Virus record (IMG/VR): IMGVR_UViG_3300032285_004073
Location: 96,001-160,000 of that record
DNA length: 64,000 nucleotides
From: a virus
Reading direction: 5' to 3' (one strand)
The notes under the pieces were generated by a model. The model ran no database searches. It saw only the letters and a program-made list of their open reading frames with translations, and was not told the origin of the DNA. Below are positions 9,002 to 22,194 of the stretch, one piece after another. The position numbers were made by a program, and so were the translations under genes. The stretch's first letter is position 1. Each line of letters starts with the position of its first letter.

Positions 9002-9964
9002 GTGAGACAATTACCTGGTAGTTATATTTTAAATAAATTTTACACCTATTCAGGTGCGCCTGTGCATAACAAATATACAGGCATATATAATGCTTCGTGT
9101 CCAGTTTGTAGAGAAGGCAAAAGTTTTTTAAAAAAGAAAAGACTATACTATTATCCTACTACTAATACATTTTATTGTTTTCATTGTAGCAAATCTTGGA
9201 ATGCATTTAATTGGATAGAAGCTGTAAGTGGTATGTCTCGAGAGGAGATAGAAGCAGAAGTCTTATCAGGCAATACTTCTTTAGATATAACAGATGATAT
9301 TAAAAATATTAAGACAAAGAAAAGAGAATTACCTTCTTTGCCTTTAGATTCTATTAATCTTTGTGACCCCTTACAAAAACAATATTACGGAACTAATGTT
9401 TATTTTCAAAAAGCACTAGAATATATTACAGAAAGAAAATTAAACACAGCAATTAATCGTAGTTCTTCTTATTTTATAAGTCTTACAGATTATTTTCATA
9501 AAAATAGACTTTGTATACCTTATTATAATAGAGATAAAAAAATTGTATTTTATCAAACAAGATCTTTAGATGGTTCAGAACCTAGATACCTTAACAAAGT
9601 AGGATATGATAAAACTATTTTTGGAATAGACAGGGTAGATACTTCTTTAGATTATTTATTTTTATTCGAAGGTCCTATGGATGCCATGTTTGTAACTAAC
9701 GGAGTATCTGTAGCCGGTCTTGTATTAACCAATGAGCAAGAAAAACAATTAATAGAGTTTCCCTTTCATGAAAAAATCTGGGTTTTGGATAATCCTAGAT
9801 TTGATGAAGCTGCCAAAGATAATATTTATAAATTAGTATCTAACAAACAAAAAGTCTTTAAATGGCCTGCTAATAAACCATATAAAGACTTTAATGAATG
9901 GTGTGTTAAAGAAAATGTAAATTCAATAGATTACAATTTTATTTTAAAAAATTTGTATTCTTAA
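9002..9964 (+). CDS. gp61: DNA primase (T4 gp61-like)
   Basis: Zn finger CPVC..CFHC, RLCIPYY..FYQTR, TOPRIM EGPMDAMF and VLDN, KDFNE; GTG start. Confidence 0.93.
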   Translation: MRQLPGSYILNKFYTYSGAPVHNKYTGIYNASCPVCREGKSFLKKKRLYYYPTTNTFYCFHCSKSWNAFNWIEAVSGMSREEIEAEVLSGNTSLDITDDIKNIKTKKRELPSLPLDSINLCDPLQKQYYGTNVYFQKALEYITERKLNTAINRSSSYFISLTDYFHKNRLCIPYYNRDKKIVFYQTRSLDGSEPRYLNKVGYDKTIFGIDRVDTSLDYLFLFEGPMDAMFVTNGVSVAGLVLTNEQEKQLIEFPFHEKIWVLDNPRFDEAAKDNIYKLVSNKQKVFKWPANKPYKDFNEWCVKENVNSIDYNFILKNLYS

Positions 9965-10605
9965 GAAGTGACAGATTGTTCTTGATCTCTTAACTTTTTA
10001 GGAGCTGTAATAATAAATGAATTTAATACTTCTTTTAATTTATCCAATTCACCTGTGGTACGAGTAATATTGTCAGAAGATTTACGCATGATACCACGAA
10101 GTAAACTTCCAGCCTTATCATTATCTGATAAAAATTTGTGTAAAGAATCTATTTTAGGATCATTTAATCTAGCAGTAAATTCATCTAATATATTTGACCA
10201 CTTTTCAATTTCTTCAATATTTTTGCTTATAACTTCTGCCGGAATACCTTCAATTTCATATGCATCTTTTGGTGTTTCTGGTTCTAATGATTTTTCAAAA
10301 GCTTCTTTGTCAGATTCTGGAGTAAACTCTTCTGGAGTTTTTTCATCCGGTTCAGATTCTGGTGTAATTTCTTTTTCTTCTGCTTCGCCGATTAAATAAG
10401 ATAAAAATCTGCCAGCAAATGGAATTTCATAATTTTCCTCATGACAACAATTGCAATCTCCTATACATTTGCACATGGGTTTGTAATTTGAATCTAGTAT
10501 TCTTTTTACATCCTTTTCCACCTTTGAATTCTTAGCTGGTATAACATTTTTTACAGAATATTTTTTCTGTGCTTTAGGTTTAAATTTGACTTTCTTGTTG
10601 TTCAT
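9961..10605 (-). CDS. Hypothetical late protein with basic N-terminus, Cys/His cluster and acidic core
   Basis: 214 aa; CKCIGDCNCCH motif; TAAATA on the minus strand at 10623-10628. Confidence 0.7.
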   Translation of the reverse strand: MNNKKVKFKPKAQKKYSVKNVIPAKNSKVEKDVKRILDSNYKPMCKCIGDCNCCHEENYEIPFAGRFLSYLIGEAEEKEITPESEPDEKTPEEFTPESDKEAFEKSLEPETPKDAYEIEGIPAEVISKNIEEIEKWSNILDEFTARLNDPKIDSLHKFLSDNDKAGSLLRGIMRKSSDNITRTTGELDKLKEVLNSFIITAPKKLRDQEQSVTS

Positions 10606-10626
10606 CGTTAGAATATATACTATATT
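10598..10626 (+). promoter_or_regulatory. Sigma70-like promoter of the queC operon (TTGTTC-N17-TATATT)
   Basis: -10 ends 6 nt before ATG 10633. Confidence 0.5.
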
Positions 10627-10632
10627 TACCTT

Positions 10633-11349
10633 ATGAGTGTCAAAAAACCAAAAGCAATTGTAATTTATAGTGGTGGTTTAGATTCTACGTGTCTTTTATA
10701 TAAAATTCACAAAGATAGAGAAGTTATAGCATTAATCTTTAATTATGGACAAAGGCATTCCATTGAAATAGACAATGCAATTAATAACTGTAAGAAATTA
10801 GAAATACCATATAAGGTATTAGACATTTCTTTCTTTAAAGATATAGCATCTTCCTCTGCTTTATTGGATTATAATAAAGAAATTCCCAATATCAGGGATA
10901 TAGCAGGTCATGCCCAACCTCCGACCTATGTCCCTAATAGGAACATGATGTTTTTATCAATTGCCACAGCAGCTGCAGAGTCAGCAGGGGCAGATAAAGT
11001 TTATTATGGAGCAGCTGAGGTAGACACCCATAGTGGTCATTGGGATTGTTCTTTAGATTTTTTAAAATATATTAATGAAACTATTTCTCTTAATAGAGAA
11101 CATCAAATCAAAATAGAAGCACCTTATATAACATATTCTAAGGCAGATATTATTAAAGATGGTATTAGTAATAATGTAGATTTTAATAACACCCATACCT
11201 GTTATAAGGGTGAAGAAATTGCATGTGGCACTTGTACAGCATGTTCTTCTCGTATTCAAGGTTTTCTTGAGGCTGGATATATTGATCCTAAACAATATGT
11301 AATATCAGATAAAATACCATGGAAAGATCACAACTGCCAAATCGTATAA
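10633..11349 (+). CDS. queC: 7-cyano-7-deazaguanine (preQ0) synthase QueC
   Basis: SGGLDS PP-loop, FNYGQRH..E, TYVPNRNMMFLS, THTCY..ACGTCTAC..R zinc site. Confidence 0.95.
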   Translation: MSVKKPKAIVIYSGGLDSTCLLYKIHKDREVIALIFNYGQRHSIEIDNAINNCKKLEIPYKVLDISFFKDIASSSALLDYNKEIPNIRDIAGHAQPPTYVPNRNMMFLSIATAAAESAGADKVYYGAAEVDTHSGHWDCSLDFLKYINETISLNREHQIKIEAPYITYSKADIIKDGISNNVDFNNTHTCYKGEEIACGTCTACSSRIQGFLEAGYIDPKQYVISDKIPWKDHNCQIV

Positions 11350-12008
11350 AAACACAGCATATTGTTTGTGCTACACCTCTTTCTCTAGAAGATTTTTATG
11401 AGAAAAGCCAATTGGGTTTATTTATAGACAAATATAATTTCCAAAAACAAAGCACAATAGTAGCTAACAACAAAGAAGGATTGCCTAAAGTTTACAATTC
11501 TTTTATAACTGAAGAAAACAGAGACAAAAATATTATATTTGTTCATGATGATGTTCTTATAGAAGATCTTTTCTTTGCCGAGAAATTAGAAATTGCTTTT
11601 GAGAAATATGATATTATAGGATTAGCTGGTTCTAAGGTTTGTGATTTAGATAGCATTAACCCGGCTTGGCATCAAATGTGTGAAAAGAAAGACATGGTCG
11701 GAGAAGTAGCACATGCTCATAATAAAAAAGTATGGACTTCTGTATTTGGACCTACAGATTCTAGAGCCCTTATTCTTGATGGATTGTTTATAGGTGTCAA
11801 TGTTGCTCGCTTATTAAAAACACAAACATTTTTTGATGAGGATTTTGATTTTCACCATTATGATATTTCTTTTTGTTTAAAAGCCAATGCTAATAAATTA
11901 AAAATGGGTGTAGCTCCGATCAGGGTTATTCATTTTGGATTAGGTGATAGTATGAATACAAAAGAATGGAGAGAGAGTGCAGCTCGTTTTAAATTAAAGT
12001 ATAATTGA
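11319..12008 (+). CDS. GT-A fold glycosyltransferase (GT2-like)
   Basis: GLPKVYN, IIFVHDDV (DxD-type), IIGLAG, LILDGLFI, FDEDFDFHHYDISFCL motifs. Confidence 0.8.
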   Translation: MERSQLPNRIKTQHIVCATPLSLEDFYEKSQLGLFIDKYNFQKQSTIVANNKEGLPKVYNSFITEENRDKNIIFVHDDVLIEDLFFAEKLEIAFEKYDIIGLAGSKVCDLDSINPAWHQMCEKKDMVGEVAHAHNKKVWTSVFGPTDSRALILDGLFIGVNVARLLKTQTFFDEDFDFHHYDISFCLKANANKLKMGVAPIRVIHFGLGDSMNTKEWRESAARFKLKYN

Positions 12009-12011
12009 TTT

Positions 12012-12665
12012 ATGTGCGGAATATACGGAAATATAAATCATGCTGAATTTTATAGACTTTACAAATTAAATAAATCTCGTGGCAGTTATAGTACTGGGTT
12101 TCTTTTTATTGATAATAAAGAATATGAAGTGAAGAAAACCAATGAAGATGTTTCTTATTATCCTATAGCTTTAAAAAAATATTATTTAGGACATAACAGA
12201 GCCCCTACTACAGATGAAAATGGCAAAGGATTGACTGGTTGTCACCCTTTTATCTATGGTAAAGCTATAGCAGCTCATAATGGTATTATTTCCAATACAG
12301 ATATTTTAGAAAATGAATATAAAATTAAATTTGATGTAGATAGTCAATGGATACCTTTTCTTTATGATTATTTTAAAAGGAATAATAATCAATCAGAAAA
12401 TGCATTCCGTCTCGCTTTATTGGAATTAGAAGGAACATATGGAATTTGGCTTTATGATATAGATGAAGAAATTGTATTTGTATCAAGAAGTGATAATACA
12501 GTTTACTGGGATGATGAAAAAATATCCTTTACATCCATTAGAGATGATATGCATAAAAATTTAATGCCGCAGGGCGCTATTTACAAAAAAGAAAATAATG
12601 AACCGTTTAAAGATATAAACGAAAACAATAGGTTGAATATTAAACAGAAGTATTTTATTATATAA
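12012..12665 (+). CDS. Class II (Ntn) glutamine amidotransferase
   Basis: N-terminal MCGIYG (Cys2 nucleophile), RG, GHNRAPT, CHPF, AHNGIISN, DVDSQ. Confidence 0.88.
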   Translation: MCGIYGNINHAEFYRLYKLNKSRGSYSTGFLFIDNKEYEVKKTNEDVSYYPIALKKYYLGHNRAPTTDENGKGLTGCHPFIYGKAIAAHNGIISNTDILENEYKIKFDVDSQWIPFLYDYFKRNNNQSENAFRLALLELEGTYGIWLYDIDEEIVFVSRSDNTVYWDDEKISFTSIRDDMHKNLMPQGAIYKKENNEPFKDINENNRLNIKQKYFII

Positions 12666-12668
12666 GTT

Positions 12669-13238
12669 ATGAGTTATTTTAAACAAGATTACAATGGTGA
12701 TTTAATCCACAAGAGATTTGGATACGAGCATTTTAAAAAAGATTATAATCCCTTAGGAGTTATTATTGCCTTTAGAGGCAATATGGATGTTACAACCAAT
12801 CTCATTGATTTAGAAGATAAAATTAATAATGATTTTATTTATTCAGATGATGCTTTAAACTTTTGCTGGGAAATCCCTAATATTTGTCCTATCGGTGCAG
12901 TTTTCTTTCAGAGACTTTTTGCTCGTTATATCGGAGATGAATTAGCTAGCGGTCGTTATGGAAAATTAAATGTTAAGGTAGATGGAGATGATATAATGAT
13001 CATTAGACCAGGCGACGCAAAGTACGGCAAAGCTAGTGTTAGTATTACTATGGTTACTAATAATGCAGCAGTAGGACATCTTGGTTTAAATATTAAAGCA
13101 GGACCTAAGGCTCCTACCTTTGCATTTTCACTCTTATTAGATGATGCAGATACTGCTTGGCTAACCAATAGAGTTAAAGAAATATTTTATGAGACTATTA
13201 AAGATTGTTTCACCGCCACTACAAAGGTTTGTGTTTAA
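12669..13238 (+). CDS. DUF366 family protein (biotin/lipoate ligase-like fold)
   Basis: YNG, FRGNMDV, DLED, QRL, GDD, KASVSI, HLGLN match the DUF366 pattern as I recall it. Confidence 0.8.
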   Translation: MSYFKQDYNGDLIHKRFGYEHFKKDYNPLGVIIAFRGNMDVTTNLIDLEDKINNDFIYSDDALNFCWEIPNICPIGAVFFQRLFARYIGDELASGRYGKLNVKVDGDDIMIIRPGDAKYGKASVSITMVTNNAAVGHLGLNIKAGPKAPTFAFSLLLDDADTAWLTNRVKEIFYETIKDCFTATTKVCV

Positions 13239-13630
13239 TGGTTAAGAAAAATATCATAGACGGATTATTTCCATTATTGGATTGGATTCTTAAAAAGAAA
13301 GGTAAATTACCTACAGACGTTAATTTACCAGGAACATTTATTATTAATAGATGGTTATCTATGGCAGATTCTTCATCTGCTCAAATTATTAATGCAACCA
13401 CTAATAGATGGATTAATAAAACAGAATTAACTAAAGAAAATATTTTATTATATAAATTTTATTATTCAGTTTTACCCAAATCGTTTAAAAAAATTTTTTA
13501 TATTAAAAAGCCTACCAAAGAGCAACAAGCAGAAGATTTAACAGGAATAGCATCAGCCATGGAATGCTCCACCAGAGAAATAGAATGTTATAACAAAACC
13601 CTTGCAGAATTAAAGAAGAATCTTAAATAG
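13238..13630 (+). CDS. gp62: Clamp loader small subunit (T4 gp62-like)
   Basis: FPLLDWILKKK, FIINRWLSM, YIKKP, C-terminal STREI..Y; start taken at ATG 13238 (TAATG coupling) rather than 13205. Confidence 0.65.
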   Translation: MVKKNIIDGLFPLLDWILKKKGKLPTDVNLPGTFIINRWLSMADSSSAQIINATTNRWINKTELTKENILLYKFYYSVLPKSFKKIFYIKKPTKEQQAEDLTGIASAMECSTREIECYNKTLAELKKNLK

Positions 13631-13637
13631 ACAATAT

Positions 13638-14033
13638 ATGATAGAAAGACCACAACAAGAAGATAGAATTCATGGACTAGTACAAATAGATAATTACAAA
13701 GGTAATTCCTTAGAATTGGATGACTGGACTTTGACCAAAGTCATGGATGATATCATTATGGTGCAATATATTGATATTAGTGAGGACGGCACTGAGGTCA
13801 ATCGCAATGGTATTTGGTTGCCTATTAATGCAGTCAATCATGTTTGGAGAATAGGCAGAGTTATATTAGCAGGACCTAATTGTAAAACAGTAAAAGAAGG
13901 AGATAATATTGTATTCCCAAATGATAAAGGCATACAAGTTTCGAGTTTAAATGATTTGAAGCATATTGTTTTCTTGAATGAAGCTCGCATATTTGGAGTA
14001 TGCGAACCTAAAAAGCGTAAGAAAACTAAGTGA
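13638..14033 (+). CDS. GroES/gp31-like co-chaperonin
   Basis: DDIIMV, NGIWLP, GRVILAGPNCKTVKEGDNIVF, VFLNEARIFG. Confidence 0.8.
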   Translation: MIERPQQEDRIHGLVQIDNYKGNSLELDDWTLTKVMDDIIMVQYIDISEDGTEVNRNGIWLPINAVNHVWRIGRVILAGPNCKTVKEGDNIVFPNDKGIQVSSLNDLKHIVFLNEARIFGVCEPKKRKKTK

Positions 14034-14413
14034 AACTTTCTTTAGGTGGTTTAAAAACTTTATGTGAAACTAATGTGGTTGAAATTAAATTTCAACGCCG
14101 CTTAATAGTTTCAGGAAAACCGCCTACAAGAAGAATATTAGCAACTTTAGATCGAAAGATTTTAGATTCTAAATTAGGTAGAGATATTTTACATTTCAAA
14201 CAACCAACTCAATCACCAGCCTACAACACAGCTGCAAAAGGGTTATTAACTGTTTGGGATATTTTATATCAAAATTGGAGAAACATACCTGTAGCTAATT
14301 GTGACGTTGTTTCAGTTATACCTTCCACGCCACCAGAAAAATTTTGGGAATATTTTAATAAAACAATAGCTAATATGTCTGCGGCACAGAAAGCTGCGTT
14401 TATGGATAAATAA
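14030..14413 (+). CDS. Conserved T4-like hypothetical protein (SH3/DUF2693-like)
   Basis: VVEIKFQRR..RRILATL..LTVWDI..NWRNIP pattern; GTG start. Confidence 0.55.
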   Translation: MKLSLGGLKTLCETNVVEIKFQRRLIVSGKPPTRRILATLDRKILDSKLGRDILHFKQPTQSPAYNTAAKGLLTVWDILYQNWRNIPVANCDVVSVIPSTPPEKFWEYFNKTIANMSAAQKAAFMDK

Positions 14414-19766: not shown

Positions 19767-20645
19767 ATGGATCTCTCATCTATTCTCAAAAATATCGACA
19801 GTAATGTTTTAAATGAAGAAACAGCCACAGCTATTGCCGAGGCGTTTAAAAGTGCAGTTGATGAAAAAGTCAATAATAGAGTAACTCTTGAACTTGAAAG
19901 TGCTCTTAGCAAACAAGATGAAGAGCATGCCACAAAATTAGAAAATCTTTTAGAAGCCATTGACACTGATCATTCAGCTAAATTAGAAACAGTTGTTAAT
20001 GCTATTAATGAAAATCATACAGCCAAGTTAGAAAAGCTTGTTGAATATTACCGCAAGGCTCTTAATGAGAAAGCAGAAAACTTCAGCAACAAGGTTGTAG
20101 AAGAGCTTAGTAACTTTATCGATCTTTATATAGATAAAGCCATTCCTCAAACCCAATTAGAAGAAGCTGTTGCTAATACAACAGCTCGTCAACAGCTCGA
20201 GCAAATCAAAAACATTTTAGCCTTTGATCCATCTCACTTAAATGAAGATGTTAAAAAGATTATCACCCAAGGTAAAAACAAAGTTGATGAATTACAAAAT
20301 CAATTAAATGAATCTTATAGGGAAAATTTAACCCTTAAAGAACATCTTATCCATACACAATCAGCCCTTCTCTTAGAGGAGAAAACTAAGGGCATGCGTA
20401 CAGCTAAAAAGAATTTTATTACAAAAATATTGAGCGACAAGTCACCTGAGTATATTTCAGAGAACTTAAATTATGTCGTTGAGATGTTCGAGAGAGAAGA
20501 GAAGGAAACTTCAGCTTCCCTTGTAGAAGAAGCAAAAGAAGCTTCCTTATCCAAGGGTGTTAAAGTACCTGCCGCTGTAATTTCTGAGAAAAAAGAAATT
20601 GACAGTCCAGTCTCCGGATATCTTACAGCTTTAAAGTCGGTCTAA
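19767..20645 (+). CDS. gp22: Prohead core scaffold (T4 gp22-like)
   Basis: Coiled-coil, IAEAFKSAVDEKV, LSNFIDLYI; located immediately before the major capsid gene. Confidence 0.85.
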   Translation: MDLSSILKNIDSNVLNEETATAIAEAFKSAVDEKVNNRVTLELESALSKQDEEHATKLENLLEAIDTDHSAKLETVVNAINENHTAKLEKLVEYYRKALNEKAENFSNKVVEELSNFIDLYIDKAIPQTQLEEAVANTTARQQLEQIKNILAFDPSHLNEDVKKIITQGKNKVDELQNQLNESYRENLTLKEHLIHTQSALLLEEKTKGMRTAKKNFITKILSDKSPEYISENLNYVVEMFEREEKETSASLVEEAKEASLSKGVKVPAAVISEKKEIDSPVSGYLTALKSV

Positions 20646-20660
20646 GGCCGCTTTTATACG

Positions 20661-20707
20661 TTGGAGAAGAGCAATTAAGCACTTCCCGAATTCTATTCAA
20701 ATAGGAG
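20661..20707 (+). promoter_or_regulatory. Major-capsid leader: two hairpins and AGGAG Shine-Dalgarno (20703-20707)
   Basis: 20661-20689 bulged stem; 20691-20706 TTCTAT/ATAGGA stem covering the SD. Confidence 0.45.
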
Positions 20708-20715
20708 AACTATAT

Positions 20716-22194
20716 ATGAACAATGTCAAACCAGCCCCTGGTTTCATCGATCGCTCTCGCGCCACTCAACTCTTAGAGAAGTGGGCCCCTGTTCTTGATT
20801 ATTCAAGTGACAAGGTTTCCCCAATCCAAGATGAGCATGCCCGTCTTTCAACAGCAATGTTGATGGAAAACCAAGAGCGTTGGTGCTTAGAGGAAGGTAG
20901 TGCTAATTCTTATGGTGGCAGTGCCTTTGGCTCTGTCCCAGCAGGAGCTAACATCTACAATCCAGCTAATACCCAATATGCTTCTAGTGATAATTATGCG
21001 CAGAATGATGCTCGCTTACCAAAGGTATTAATCCCAATGGTTCGCCGTACATTCCCAGAACTTATCACTAATGAGATCGTCGGTGTACAACCAATGAGTG
21101 GCCCAGTCGGACTTGCGTTCGCATTACGTTATCGCTATGAGGCAGATAGTTTAGGCTCAACGGGAGTTGATGGCTGGACCAGTGGTGTTTCACAAACCAG
21201 CAACACAGGCATCAGTCGTACAGGTGCAAACCCAACGACAGATGGCTCAGAACTTGGCTATAACTATCTTGATACTCGCTTTACTGGTACTTCAGCTGCC
21301 GCCCTTACAGGTAACACGGATTTTTACTTCCCTGATTCCGATAAAGGTGTCGCTGCATTACTCAGTCAATTCGAGTTATCTGGAAACATTCCACAGGTCA
21401 CTGTAGAGTTCAGTAAGACAGCAGTTGAAGCCGGCACACGCCGTCTCGCAGCTCGCTGGTCTGTTGAGCTCGAGCAGGATCTTAAGAACATGAACGGTCT
21501 CGATATCGACTCTGAATTAACAAATGCCATGAGCTATGAAATTCAAGCCGAAATCGATCGTGAAATGGTCATCAGAATGATCCAGACCTGTCTCAATGCC
21601 GGTTCTACAAATGGATATAGCTTCTGGTACGCTGCTTCAGCCGACGCTCGTTGGCTCGGAGAGCGTAATCGTGACTTCTACAGCAAGGTAATCGTACAAG
21701 CCAATCGTATTGCTATCCGCAATCGTCGTGGTAGCGCTAATTTCATTATCGCTACACCTAAGGTTTGTGCTATCCTTGAGATGTTACCCGAGTTCCAGTG
21801 GATGCCTGTAAATGGCAACATCAACACCCAACCAACTGGCATTGCCAAGGTTGGCACACTTGGTGGCCGTTTCAACGTCTACCGTGATACTCGTACAGAT
21901 GCTCAATTCCTCGCAGGACAACGCAGTGCAGCTCAAGCTATTGACTATGCCCTCTTAGGCTACAAAGGCACAGAGTACTACGATACAGGTATCGTATACT
22001 GCCCATATATCCCTGTCATGATTCAACGTACAATCGGGCCTAATGACTTCTCACCTCGCGTGGGACTCATGACCCGTTACGGTGTCGTAGATTATATCTT
22101 CGGTGCTAGCTTGTACTATCACGTAATCATCGTTAGCGGATTGGGTACCTCTTTTGCCGGCGGAGCCAATGGCCAGAGTACAATTTACATCTAA
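20716..22194 (+). CDS. gp23: Major capsid protein (T4 gp23-like)
   Basis: LLEKWAPVL, MENQ, LIPMVRR, GVQPMSGPVGLAFALRY, EQDLK, EIDRE, YCPYIP, MTRYG. Confidence 0.98.
   Translation: MNNVKPAPGFIDRSRATQLLEKWAPVLDYSSDKVSPIQDEHARLSTAMLMENQERWCLEEGSANSYGGSAFGSVPAGANIYNPANTQYASSDNYAQNDARLPKVLIPMVRRTFPELITNEIVGVQPMSGPVGLAFALRYRYEADSLGSTGVDGWTSGVSQTSNTGISRTGANPTTDGSELGYNYLDTRFTGTSAAALTGNTDFYFPDSDKGVAALLSQFELSGNIPQVTVEFSKTAVEAGTRRLAARWSVELEQDLKNMNGLDIDSELTNAMSYEIQAEIDREMVIRMIQTCLNAGSTNGYSFWYAASADARWLGERNRDFYSKVIVQANRIAIRNRRGSANFIIATPKVCAILEMLPEFQWMPVNGNINTQPTGIAKVGTLGGRFNVYRDTRTDAQFLAGQRSAAQAIDYALLGYKGTEYYDTGIVYCPYIPVMIQRTIGPNDFSPRVGLMTRYGVVDYIFGASLYYHVIIVSGLGTSFAGGANGQSTIYI

What the first reader, a model, noticed from the sequence alone, without database searches (positions are those of the whole stretch)
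10633..13238. QueC + glycosyltransferase + amidotransferase + DUF366 operon: candidate novel (glycosylated) 7-deazaguanine modification pathway
Seen: four overlapping or abutting genes behind one sigma70-like promoter, next to the primase and clamp loader. They encode a canonical QueC (SGGLDS, Zn site), a GT-A glycosyltransferase (HDDV), a stand-alone Cys2 class II glutamine amidotransferase and a DUF366 ligase-fold protein. Established: QueC makes preQ0. Gat-QueC fusions convert preQ0 toward archaeosine, and phages install 7-deazaguanines in DNA through DpdA to evade restriction. QueC-like enzymes also occur in Qat and type IV CBASS defence systems. Inference: the split Gat/QueC pair could yield an amidine or amine base, which the GT then glycosylates or DUF366 acylates. 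I know of no described glycosylated 7-deazaguanine in phage DNA and no function for DUF366. No FolE, QueD, QueE or DpdA is present in this window.
Basis: partly seen in the sequence, partly recalled or inferred. Interest (0 to 1): 0.85.

Follow-up and report, generated by a model that had tools for sequence, protein, structure and literature searches.

The report
Phage preQ0 module with DUF366 partner
The four genes are real and belong to a phage that almost certainly puts a 7-deazaguanine into its DNA. The sugar-transferase gene is probably a bystander, while the unknown DUF366 protein looks like a previously unnoticed partner of QueC in both phages and bacteria.

Summary
QueC, a GT-A glycosyltransferase, a stand-alone class II glutamine amidotransferase (Gat) and DUF366 sit packed at 10633-13238 beside the primase.

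The window is part of a 177-kb uncultured T4-like phage. Outside the window it also carries QueD, QueE and a DpdA3-type DNA transglycosylase. A 7-deazaguanine DNA modification is therefore well supported.

The glycosylation idea is not supported. GT orthologues (56-68% identical, same locus) occur alone in 72 of 79 nearest loci. Nine long relatives carry this GT but have no QueC, QueD, DpdA3, Gat or DUF366; two of them are complete genomes.

Gat and DUF366 go with the pathway instead. Both were found in every relative that carries QueC and in none of the nine that lack it.

DUF366 also lies directly behind QueC in an unrelated PolA-type phage. In Bdellovibrionota chromosomes it does so in 29 of 32 DUF366-bearing genomes. 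The 25 sampled genomes whose best QueC scores higher have no DUF366.

The DUF366 model has a biotin/lipoate protein-ligase fold.

Best reading: the operon is a preQ0-supply module (QueC, a glutamine-derived ammonia donor and a DUF366 partner) with a resident GT inside it. The DNA base is most likely dPreQ0, or dG+/dADG. The QueC-DUF366 link appears undescribed; the scan had noted this same stretch once before, in an overlapping window.

The parts
9002..9964 (+). DnaG-type primase. It is the flanking replication gene and the anchor of the conserved synteny.
   Evidence: TIGR01391 7e-14 and weak Toprim_2/DNAG_N hits. It is present next to the locus in relatives both with and without the que genes.
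9961..10605 (-). Conserved 214-aa ORF of unknown function, divergent from queC, carrying a CX3CX2C motif. It is not specific to the que genes.
   Evidence: No family hit. The motif was seen. Homologues occur in relatives with and without que genes.
10586..10614 (+). Sigma-70-like promoter candidate TTGACT-17-TAGAAT, 18 nt upstream of the queC ATG.
   Evidence: It is the best match in 9800-14200 (10 of 12 positions). Site density is not above shuffles.
10633..11349 (+). QueC (7-cyano-7-deazaguanine synthase type).
   Evidence: PF06508 1e-58 and TIGR00364 above its cut-off. SGGLDS, YGQRHSIE, VPNRN and four zinc cysteines are present, with HWDC in place of YPDC (motifs from PMC13329287).
11319..12008 (+). 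GT-A (GT2-like) glycosyltransferase. It is a resident gene of this locus and is not specific to the que pathway.
   Evidence: PF13712 1e-8. HDD, DG and FHHYD are invariant. The model has pLDDT 93 and its best PDB match is the UDP-binding GT-A protein majastridin 2QGI. Orthologues stand alone in 72 of 79 nearest loci and in nine long genomes that lack que genes.
12012..12665 (+). Stand-alone class II (Ntn) glutamine amidotransferase.
   Evidence: GATase_6 1.9e-5 and glmS/purF N-terminal domains. C2, R23-G24, H89-N90-G91 and D110 are invariant, and R63 is R or Q. Its profile matches the Gat domain of the Nonagvirus Gat-QueC (hhalign 95.5%). It is present in all relatives with QueC and in 0 of 9 without.
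12669..13238 (+). DUF366 / COG2029 protein with a biotin/lipoate protein-ligase-like fold. It is a candidate QueC partner.
   Evidence: PF04017 1.7e-21. The model has pLDDT 94; 2DDZ scores Z 22.9 and BPL/LplA/LipB score Z 10-12. It co-varies with QueC in T4-like relatives. It lies next to QueC in a PolA-type phage and in Bdellovibrionota.
13205..14033 (+). Downstream conserved block: a 141-aa ORF and a GroES/gp31-like co-chaperonin. It marks the fixed position of DUF366 in the clade.
   Evidence: Cpn10 5e-6. The order DUF366-orf141-GroES-orf127-helicase is kept in nearly all of the 80 loci fetched with DUF366.

Best explanation
The stretch is the preQ0-supply part of a dispersed, DpdA3-dependent 7-deazaguanine DNA-modification system in an uncultured T4-like phage.

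Proposed pathway:
1. QueD and QueE, encoded about 37-45 kb upstream of the operon in the genome, make 7-carboxy-7-deazaguanine (CDG). They start from GTP-derived H2NTP. FolE is presumably supplied by the host.
2. QueC converts CDG to preQ0.
3. DpdA3 swaps the base into DNA after replication.

Proposed roles of the other genes:
- The stand-alone class II Gat most likely hydrolyses glutamine to feed nitrogen to the QueC reaction. This is the logic of asparagine synthetase and GMP synthase. Alternatively it makes archaeosine, as the fused Gat-QueC does.
- DUF366, a ligase-fold protein, is a previously unrecognised partner of QueC. It acts at or before the preQ0 stage, and its exact chemistry is unknown.
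- The GT-A glycosyltransferase is a resident gene of this locus with a function that does not depend on deazaguanine.

This phage and its near-complete relative have no QueF, DpdN, ArcS or other TGT-family gene. The expected DNA base is therefore dPreQ0, with dG+ or dADG as alternatives.

Shown here: gene identities, the rest of the pathway in the genome, the co-occurrence patterns, and the folds. Inferred: the roles of Gat and DUF366 and the final base.
For: Pathway completeness:
- QueD: PF01242 9e-15.
- QueE: its top five NCBIfam hits are all QueE models, best 1.4e-14.
- DpdA3: 37% identity, 4e-47, to the annotated DNA guanine transglycosylase of Flavobacterium phage immuto, and similar matches to Campylobacter CP220-type phages. 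Cui et al. 2023 (PMC10516641) call DpdA the signature of these modifications and link DpdA3 to complete G replacement.

Co-variation in relatives:
- G001-G005 all carry QueC; G001, G002, G004 and G005 also showed DpdA3, QueD, QueE, Gat and DUF366, and the half-complete G003 showed Gat and DUF366 but no DpdA3 match.
- Nine long relatives G007-G015 have none of QueC, DUF366, DpdA3, Gat or QueD, yet keep the GT at the same locus. Two of them are complete genomes with terminal repeats.
- In a quick GT tree, GTs from genomes with que genes fall in at least three clades scattered among those without.

Independent DUF366-QueC links:
- A 4-nt overlapping QueC-DUF366 pair sits beside QueD and QueE in a PolA-type phage.
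- In 61 sampled Bdellovibrionota genomes, 32 have DUF366. In 29 of those it lies directly downstream of QueC on the same strand, and in one more the pair is split at contig ends.
- All DUF366-linked QueCs score 194 bits or less. The 25 genomes with QueC but no DUF366 have a best QueC of 200 bits or more.
- Two complete Bdellovibrionota-type genomes have a single strong QueC hit each, plus tgt and queD.
- DUF366-linked bacterial QueCs lack the His of YxQxHxxE and the Cys of YPDC.

Gat acting upstream:
- Gat is present in lineages with QueF (G001; G002, which also has DpdN) and without it (G000, G004, G005).

Folds:
- DUF366 has the BPL/LplA/LipB fold. The GT is a GT-A protein.
Against: - No chemistry was measured; the modified base and every enzyme role are inferred.
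- In every genome with que genes where the region was seen, the GT lies within about 1 kb of Gat and within about 2.7 kb of QueC, in five different gene orders. In one lineage an Fcl-like NDP-sugar epimerase/reductase sits between them, and in another a GNAT. A role for the GT in the pathway is therefore not excluded.
- The co-occurrence counts are not phylogenetically independent. The Bdellovibrionota pairs may descend from one ancestral event.
- The phage QueC here keeps the His and Cys that the bacterial DUF366-linked QueCs lack, so a 'complementing a defective QueC' logic may not carry over.
- DUF366 also occurs next to unrelated genes: dCMP deaminase, a GMP-reductase-like gene, and in the record of Microcystis phage MaAM05. 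The que status of those genomes is unknown.
- DpdA3 phages with known bases (immuto, CP220) have neither DUF366 nor this Gat.
- The window's genome is only 82% complete, so a QueF or FolE could be missing from view. The 99% complete relative G004 has the same gene order and also lacks both.
Confidence: 0.6

Rival explanations
1. All four genes build a new hypermodified base. Split Gat/QueC gives an amidine or amine, which the GT then glycosylates on DNA and/or DUF366 acylates.
For: - The genes are tightly packed.
- The GT stays beside Gat and QueC through several rearrangements in genomes with que genes.
- Sugar-nucleotide (Fcl-like) and GNAT genes are inserted next to the GT inside the cluster in two lineages.
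- The GT is a genuine GT-A enzyme with an intact DxD motif.
- No paper in the library describes a glycosylated deazaguanine in phage DNA.
Against: - GT orthologues at 56-68% identity sit at the same locus in 72 of 79 nearest loci without QueC, Gat or DUF366.
- Nine long relatives with this GT, two of them complete, lack the whole pathway including DpdA3.
- GTs from genomes with and without que genes are intermixed in the tree.
- Other notes of this scan report many further GT genes in this genome, so adjacency to a GT is not rare (unchecked).
- DUF366 lies next to QueC in bacterial chromosomes that carry the tRNA-queuosine genes tgt and queD, where no DNA hypermodification is expected.
Confidence: 0.1
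2. Split Gat plus QueC is the functional equivalent of the fused Gat-QueC of phage 9g. The final DNA base in this phage would then be archaeosine (dG+). DUF366 would be an accessory, and the GT unrelated.
For: - The fused Gat-QueC together with DpdA gives dG+ (Hutinet et al. 2019, PMC6884629, read).
- The Gat profile aligns with the Gat domain of the Nonagvirus Gat-QueC.
- The catalytic Cys and the Asn-Gly and Asp residues are conserved.
- There is no QueF in G000, G004 or G005.
- Gat co-varies with QueC.
Against: - The same Gat is kept in G001 and G002, which also carry a QueF 47% identical to that of the fdPreQ1 phage immuto. G002 also has DpdN, so in those phages preQ0 is expected to go to preQ1.
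- The hhalign match is what any class II Gat would give. BLASTP finds no specific similarity.
- The genes are not fused, and in this lineage the GT separates them.
Confidence: 0.22
3. The module is not for DNA. It boosts queuosine/preQ0 for tRNA (host or phage tRNAs) or makes a free deazapurine metabolite. DUF366 and Gat would then act on a small molecule unrelated to DNA.
For: - QueC-DUF366 pairs in Bdellovibrionota lie in chromosomes that carry tgt and queD.
- No TGT family hit (PF01702) was found in the phage.
Against: - A DpdA3 homologue lies between thyX and the DNA polymerase gene.
- DpdA3 is lost together with QueC, QueD, Gat and DUF366 in the relatives that lack que genes.
- According to PMC10516641, every phage known to carry these DNA modifications encodes a DpdA.
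Confidence: 0.05

Closest known systems
[quoted passage not shown] 2023, PMC10516641)
   Same: A DpdA3 homologue at 37-38% identity, plus QueD, QueE and QueC spread among the replication genes of a large myovirus-type genome.
   Different: This phage has no QueF, DpdN, DpdM or DpdL. It has a stand-alone class II Gat and DUF366, which tblastn did not find in those phages. No FolE was found.
Gat-QueC fusion of Enterobacteria phage 9g / Nonagvirus and Crenarchaeota (archaeosine synthesis; Hutinet et al. 2019, PMC6884629)
   Same: A class II glutamine amidotransferase is associated with a QueC in a DpdA-bearing phage. The Gat domain is detectably homologous at profile level.
   Different: Here the two are separate genes with a GT between them. 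The partner is DpdA3, not DpdA1. The same Gat co-exists with QueF in sister lineages. The product is unknown.
Asparagine synthetase B and two-subunit GMP synthase (a Gat feeding ammonia to a PP-loop ATP pyrophosphatase)
   Same: An Ntn or Gat domain combined with a PP-loop adenylating enzyme that amidates an activated carboxylate or carbonyl. PMC13329287 describes archaeal GMP synthase as a QueC-like subunit with a separately encoded GATase.
   Different: The substrate would be CDG/ADG.
Biotin protein ligase / lipoate protein ligase / octanoyltransferase (BPL_LplA_LipB fold) and PDB 2DDZ (PH0223, unknown function)
   Same: The DUF366 model superposes on 2DDZ (Z 22.9) and on BPL, LplA and LipB catalytic domains (Z 10-12 over residues 1-185).
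   Different: There is no detectable sequence-profile relation to E. coli BirA (hhalign probability 0.2%). The protein has no C-terminal or DNA-binding domains. A candidate Lys (K121) is present in only 26 of 38 aligned members. Substrate and reaction are unknown.
QatC (Qat) and Cap9 (type IV CBASS) QueC-like defence proteins
   Same: The PF06508 fold and CDG-type chemistry.
   Different: The window's QueC matches the QatC model only weakly and partially (7e-5, 21.8 bits against a cut-off of 280). It keeps the canonical QueC motifs. It sits in a phage alongside DpdA3, QueD and QueE, and no Qat or CBASS partner genes were seen around it.
Glycosylated 7-deazapurine natural products such as huimycin and dapiramicin (from my own knowledge, not checked here)
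   Same: They would be chemical precedent for a sugar on a preQ0-type base.
   Different: They are actinomycete small molecules, not DNA bases. The GT here is retained in relatives that have no deazaguanine genes.

Membership tests
Phage DpdA-dependent 7-deazaguanine DNA modification system | A DpdA-family DNA guanine transglycosylase is encoded by the phage | tested here: met
   L002:12327-13205:- matches the immuto 'DNA guanine transglycosylase' (DpdA3) at 37% identity, 4e-47, and CP220-type phages at 4e-40. Pfam TGT does not detect it.
Phage DpdA-dependent 7-deazaguanine DNA modification system | The preQ0 synthesis genes QueD, QueE and QueC are present | tested here: met
   QueD: PF01242 9e-15. 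QueE: the top five NCBIfam hits are QueE models, best 1.4e-14, all below their curated cut-offs. QueC.
Phage DpdA-dependent 7-deazaguanine DNA modification system | FolE (GTP cyclohydrolase I) is present | tested here: not met
PF01227 was not found in G000. There was no tblastn hit with immuto FolE in G000, G001, G004 or G005; only G002 has one. The host enzyme may serve.
Phage DpdA-dependent 7-deazaguanine DNA modification system | A 7-deazaguanine nucleoside is present in virion DNA | not testable with these tools
   This needs LC-MS/MS or raw long-read signal data.
Canonical QueC (PF06508 cluster 1, PMC13329287) | SGGxDS, YxQxHxxE and VPxRN motifs, and a score over the equivalog cut-off | tested here: met
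   SGGLDS, YGQRHSIE and VPNRN are present. TIGR00364 scores 179.4 against a cut-off of 150.3.
Canonical QueC (PF06508 cluster 1, PMC13329287) | The YPDC motif and the C(x)8CxxCxxC zinc site | tested here: inconclusive
   The motif reads HWDC. Y131F is partly active in E. coli, but His was not tested in that paper. All four Cys are present, with spacing x7.
Gat-QueC archaeosine synthase | A class II Gat domain fused to QueC in one polypeptide | tested here: not met
   They are separate ORFs, with the GT gene between them in this lineage.
Gat-QueC archaeosine synthase | Produces G+ / dG+ | not testable with these tools
   The same Gat co-exists with QueF in G001 and G002, which argues against G+ as its general role.
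Class II (Ntn) glutamine amidotransferase | An N-terminal catalytic Cys after Met, the Asn-Gly oxyanion motif, and Arg and Asp that bind glutamine | tested here: met
   C2, H89-N90-G91 and D110 are invariant, and R63 is R or Q, in nine homologues. The assignment of roles rests on knowledge of GlmS and PurF. The Pfam GATase_6 score of 25.1 is just below the cut-off of 27.
GT-A glycosyltransferase (GT2-like, PF13712) | A DxD motif, the GT-A fold, and a family score over the cut-off | tested here: met
   HDD is invariant. PF13712 scores 35.6 against a cut-off of 27. The model matches the UDP-bound 2QGI (TM 0.69) and ppGalNAc-transferases.
   Orthologues occur in nine long genomes without QueC, QueD, DpdA3, Gat or DUF366, and in 72 of 79 nearest loci.
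DUF366 (PF04017 / COG2029) | A family score over the cut-off and the fold of 2DDZ | tested here: met
   The score is 77 bits against a cut-off of 29.9. 2DDZ scores Z 22.9 with rmsd 2.1 over 176 residues.
Biotin/lipoate protein ligase family (BPL_LplA_LipB) | Sequence-profile relation and the catalytic Lys / adenylate-binding motifs | tested here: inconclusive
   The fold match is Z 10-12. hhalign against E. coli BirA gives probability 0.2%. The candidate K121 is not universally conserved.

The most novel reading that the evidence does not exclude
The whole cluster makes a new hypermodified G in DNA. A preQ0- or ADG/G+-type base would be inserted by DpdA3 and then glycosylated by the GT-A enzyme. 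Some lineages would use a sugar tailored by the Fcl-like or GNAT genes inserted next to the GT. DUF366 would add or activate a carboxylate-linked group. Relatives that lack que genes would keep the GT for a second acceptor.
Probability: 0.1. Interest if true: 0.85.

Novelty: new variant of a known kind. Interest (0 to 1): 0.62.

Why it matters
7-Deazaguanine DNA modifications are a major way for phages to evade restriction, and their biosynthesis was thought to be largely mapped.

1. This work assigns a pathway context to DUF366/COG2029. That family has a solved structure (2DDZ) but no known function and no mention in the searched literature. It behaves as a partner of a QueC subfamily in Bdellovibrionota, where it is mutually exclusive with the higher-scoring QueC type, and in two unrelated phage lineages. 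If confirmed, the 'single-enzyme' CDG-to-preQ0 step has a two-component variant. That variant is directly testable by complementing an E. coli queC mutant.

2. It defines a large uncultured clade of T4-like phages in which the whole deazaguanine system (QueC, QueD, DpdA3, Gat, DUF366) is present or absent as a unit among close relatives. This is a natural experiment for studying the cost and benefit of the modification.

3. It removes an attractive but unsupported claim of a glycosylated deazaguanine.

Tried and rejected
- Direct DNA similarity of the operon to cultured phages found nothing.
- Pfam TGT, GTP_cyclohydroI and Radical_SAM searches of the genome were negative. DpdA3 and QueE were found only through homologues from phage immuto and through NCBIfam.
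- Of two ORFs picked up by a radical-SAM-like Cys-motif scan as possible QueE candidates, the one at G000:88759-89316 and the ORF divergent from queC gave no support in Pfam.
From its position I think a gp59-like helicase loader is more likely; this was not tested.
- The search for related loci with the broad DUF366 and Gat alignments failed for lack of a conserved stretch. The Gat of G001 alone found only near-identical loci.
- Sequence searches of PDB with Gat and GT gave nothing useful.
- hhalign of DUF366 against E. coli BirA showed no relation. The motif analogy to BPL that I had considered is therefore dropped.
- A hydroxymethyl-pyrimidine route as the GT acceptor: no ThyA/gp42-type family (PF00303) in nine genomes with or without que genes.
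- Literature searches for DUF366, PF04017, COG2029 and PH0223 found no functional study. The supplement of the 2026 QueC paper does not mention PF04017.
- The archaeal neighbourhoods of DUF366 could not be reached.
- The careful maximum-likelihood GT tree did not finish. Only the quick tree is reported.


Full report
**What is there.**
The ORF map and family scans confirm four co-oriented genes that abut or overlap.
- QueC, 10633-11349: PF06508 1e-58; TIGR00364 above its curated cut-off.
- A GT-A glycosyltransferase, 11319-12008: PF13712 1e-8; invariant HDD.
- A stand-alone class II glutamine amidotransferase (Gat), 12012-12665: Cys2; weak but consistent glmS/purF/GATase_6 hits.
- DUF366, 12669-13238: PF04017 1.7e-21.

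A DnaG-type primase and a divergent 214-aa ORF lie upstream. A small ORF and a GroES-like gene lie downstream. The promoter-like TTGACT-17-TAGAAT at 10586-10614 is the best site locally, but such sites are not enriched over shuffles. The 'clamp loader' was not confirmed.

**Genome context.**
The window is bases 96001-160000 of a 176.8-kb IMG/VR record, estimated 82% complete. The record is a deep-branching T4-like phage with gp32, a DnaB-type helicase, UvsX, ThyX and PolB. Its PolB is only about 29% identical to cyanophage polymerases.

Outside the window I found three more pathway genes.
- QueD lies between the helicase and UvsX.
- QueE: all five of its best NCBIfam hits are QueE models.
- A 292-aa protein lies between ThyX and PolB. 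It is 37% identical (4e-47) to the annotated DpdA3 of Flavobacterium phage immuto and similar to proteins of CP220-type Campylobacter phages.

Cui et al. 2023 (PMC10516641) treat DpdA as the signature of deazaguanine DNA modification and associate DpdA3 with complete G replacement. No FolE and no QueF were found. The 99% complete relative G004 has the same gene order and lacks them too.

**Relatives: what travels with what.**
DUF366 homologues occur in 444 IMG/VR stretches.
- In 66 of the best 80 loci, DUF366 sits at a fixed place (before orf141-GroES-orf127-helicase) without QueC, GT or Gat beside it.
- In 14 loci the window's four-gene order, or a variant of it, is present.

I fetched four long relatives whole and searched several others. 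G001, G002, G004 and G005 all carry QueC, QueD, QueE, DpdA3, Gat, GT and DUF366. G003, about half complete, showed QueC, Gat, GT and DUF366 but no DpdA3 match.
- G001 and G002 also have a QueF 47% identical to that of immuto. G002 has DpdN and FolE as well.
- In G001, G002, G003 and G016, the genes QueC, Gat and GT cluster elsewhere. In G001 and G002 the cluster lies between the helicase and UvsX, about 35 kb from DUF366.

Gene orders seen:
- QueC-GT-Gat-DUF366;
- QueC-Gat-SDR-GT-DUF366, where the SDR is GDP-fucose-synthase-like;
- QueC-x-Gat-GT;
- QueC-x-x-Gat-GT;
- GT-GNAT-Gat-x-QueC.

**The GT is not pathway-specific.**
A scan with a GT alignment returned the 80 nearest loci; 79 of them were new and were examined. 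In 72 of these 79 the order is primase-orf214-GT-orf141-GroES, with no QueC, Gat or DUF366. I searched nine long contigs of that type, G007-G015. G007 and G008 have direct terminal repeats and are rated 100% complete; G009 is 92% complete. None has QueC, DUF366, DpdA3, Gat or QueD. The same searches find these genes in the genomes that carry the que set.

In a quick GT tree, GTs from genomes with que genes form at least three clades scattered among those without. None of nine genomes has a ThyA/gp42-type gene, so a hydroxymethyl-pyrimidine acceptor is unlikely too. The GT model is a good GT-A fold and is closest to the UDP-binding protein majastridin.

The GT is thus a real glycosyltransferase with a function that survives loss of the whole deazaguanine system. 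Its constant proximity to Gat and QueC in genomes with que genes is mostly explained by descent: the order QueC-(x)-Gat-GT recurs in four of the five arrangements. That proximity keeps a residual probability for a pathway role.

**Gat.**
Nine homologues keep Cys2, R-G, H-N-G and the Asp, so it is a competent Ntn glutaminase. Its profile aligns with the Gat domain of the Nonagvirus Gat-QueC (95.5%). BLASTP sees nothing specific.

Gat is present in lineages with QueF and without it. The role consistent with all of them is upstream of preQ0: glutamine-derived ammonia for the two-step QueC reaction. This parallels asparagine synthetase B and the two-subunit GMP synthase described in PMC13329287. 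Archaeosine formation, as shown for the fused enzyme in PMC6884629, remains a serious alternative for the lineage without QueF.

**DUF366.**
The model (pLDDT 94) matches 2DDZ at Z 22.9. It matches biotin protein ligases, LplA and LipB at Z 10-12 over the whole protein. No profile-level relation to BirA was detectable.

Beyond the T4-like clade I found two independent links to QueC.
- A PolA-type phage contig carries QueD, QueE and an overlapping QueC-DUF366 pair.
- In Bdellovibrionota chromosomes DUF366 directly follows QueC, in the order SecDF-RecJ-QueC-DUF366.

In an even sample of 61 Bdellovibrionota genomes, 32 have DUF366.
- In 29 of them QueC lies immediately upstream on the same strand.
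- In one the pair is split at contig ends.
- In two fragmented genomes no QueC was found.
- All DUF366-linked QueCs score 125-194 bits.
- The 25 genomes with QueC but no DUF366 have a best QueC of 200-261 bits.

Two complete genomes have a single strong QueC hit each, plus tgt and queD, so the pair sits in genomes equipped for the ordinary queuosine pathway. The linked bacterial QueCs lack the His of YxQxHxxE and the Cys of YPDC.

The pattern is obligate adjacency plus mutual exclusion with the higher-scoring QueC type. This is what one expects of a partner or subunit of the CDG-to-preQ0 step. The phage QueC here keeps those residues (HWDC in place of YPDC), so the exact logic may differ in phages.

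DUF366 also occurs beside a dCMP deaminase, beside a GMP-reductase-like gene, and in the MaAM05 record. The que status of those genomes is unknown.

**Comparison with the known, and novelty.**
The system is a new member of the DpdA3 class. Two components were not found by tblastn in the cultured DpdA3 phages: a split Gat and DUF366. No paper in the searched library mentions DUF366, PF04017 or COG2029 in any functional sense. None reports a glycosylated deazaguanine in phage DNA.

I rate the finding a new variant of a known kind. The headline glycosylation claim is unlikely (about 0.1). The QueC-DUF366 partnership is the real lead.

**Verdict.**
- Observation: confirmed.
- Interpretation: partly supported.
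- Most likely DNA base in this phage: dPreQ0, with dG+ or dADG as alternatives.
- All enzyme roles and the base are inferred and need the experiments listed.

Noticed in passing
L097:7975-8634 (G001) and L062:5309-5974: Two Gat homologues have no ATG, GTG or TTG directly before the catalytic Cys. The codon there reads Ile ('ICGI...'), which suggests an ATT/ATA/ATC start codon so that Cys becomes residue 2.
   Followed up: no
L097:10539-11288 (G001), L107:10475-11221 (G002), L112:4510-5388 (phage immuto): The QueC proteins of the DpdA3 phages that also carry QueF lack three of the four zinc cysteines. The same is true of the QueC of immuto, whose DNA is reported to carry fdPreQ1. A zinc-less QueC subtype therefore appears to go with QueF and DpdA3.
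   Followed up: partly
L133:13315-14514 (JGI 3300033149 contig, PolA-type phage): A second, 399-aa QueC-like protein (PF06508 5e-14, with about 105 extra N-terminal residues) lies next to a SAM methyltransferase. The same phage has the QueC-DUF366 pair and an intein-containing PolA.
   Followed up: no
L127:4777-5790 (G005) and L097:7502-7975 (G001): A GDP-fucose-synthase-like SDR is inserted between Gat and GT in one lineage, and a GNAT acetyltransferase in another. This hints that the GT uses a tailored sugar.
   Followed up: partly
window 9961-10605 (-): A conserved 214-aa ORF divergent from queC carries a CX3CX2C motif but hits no radical-SAM model. It is kept in relatives both with and without the que genes.
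   Followed up: partly
By position it may be a gp59-like helicase loader.
   Followed up: partly
window 20001-22000: G+C rises to 0.43 against about 0.31 elsewhere in the window. I did not examine this.
   Followed up: no
L135:918-1916: In another T4-like contig an IMPDH/GMP-reductase-family gene (PF00478 5e-47) overlaps the start of DUF366. This is another purine-metabolism neighbour of DUF366.
   Followed up: no
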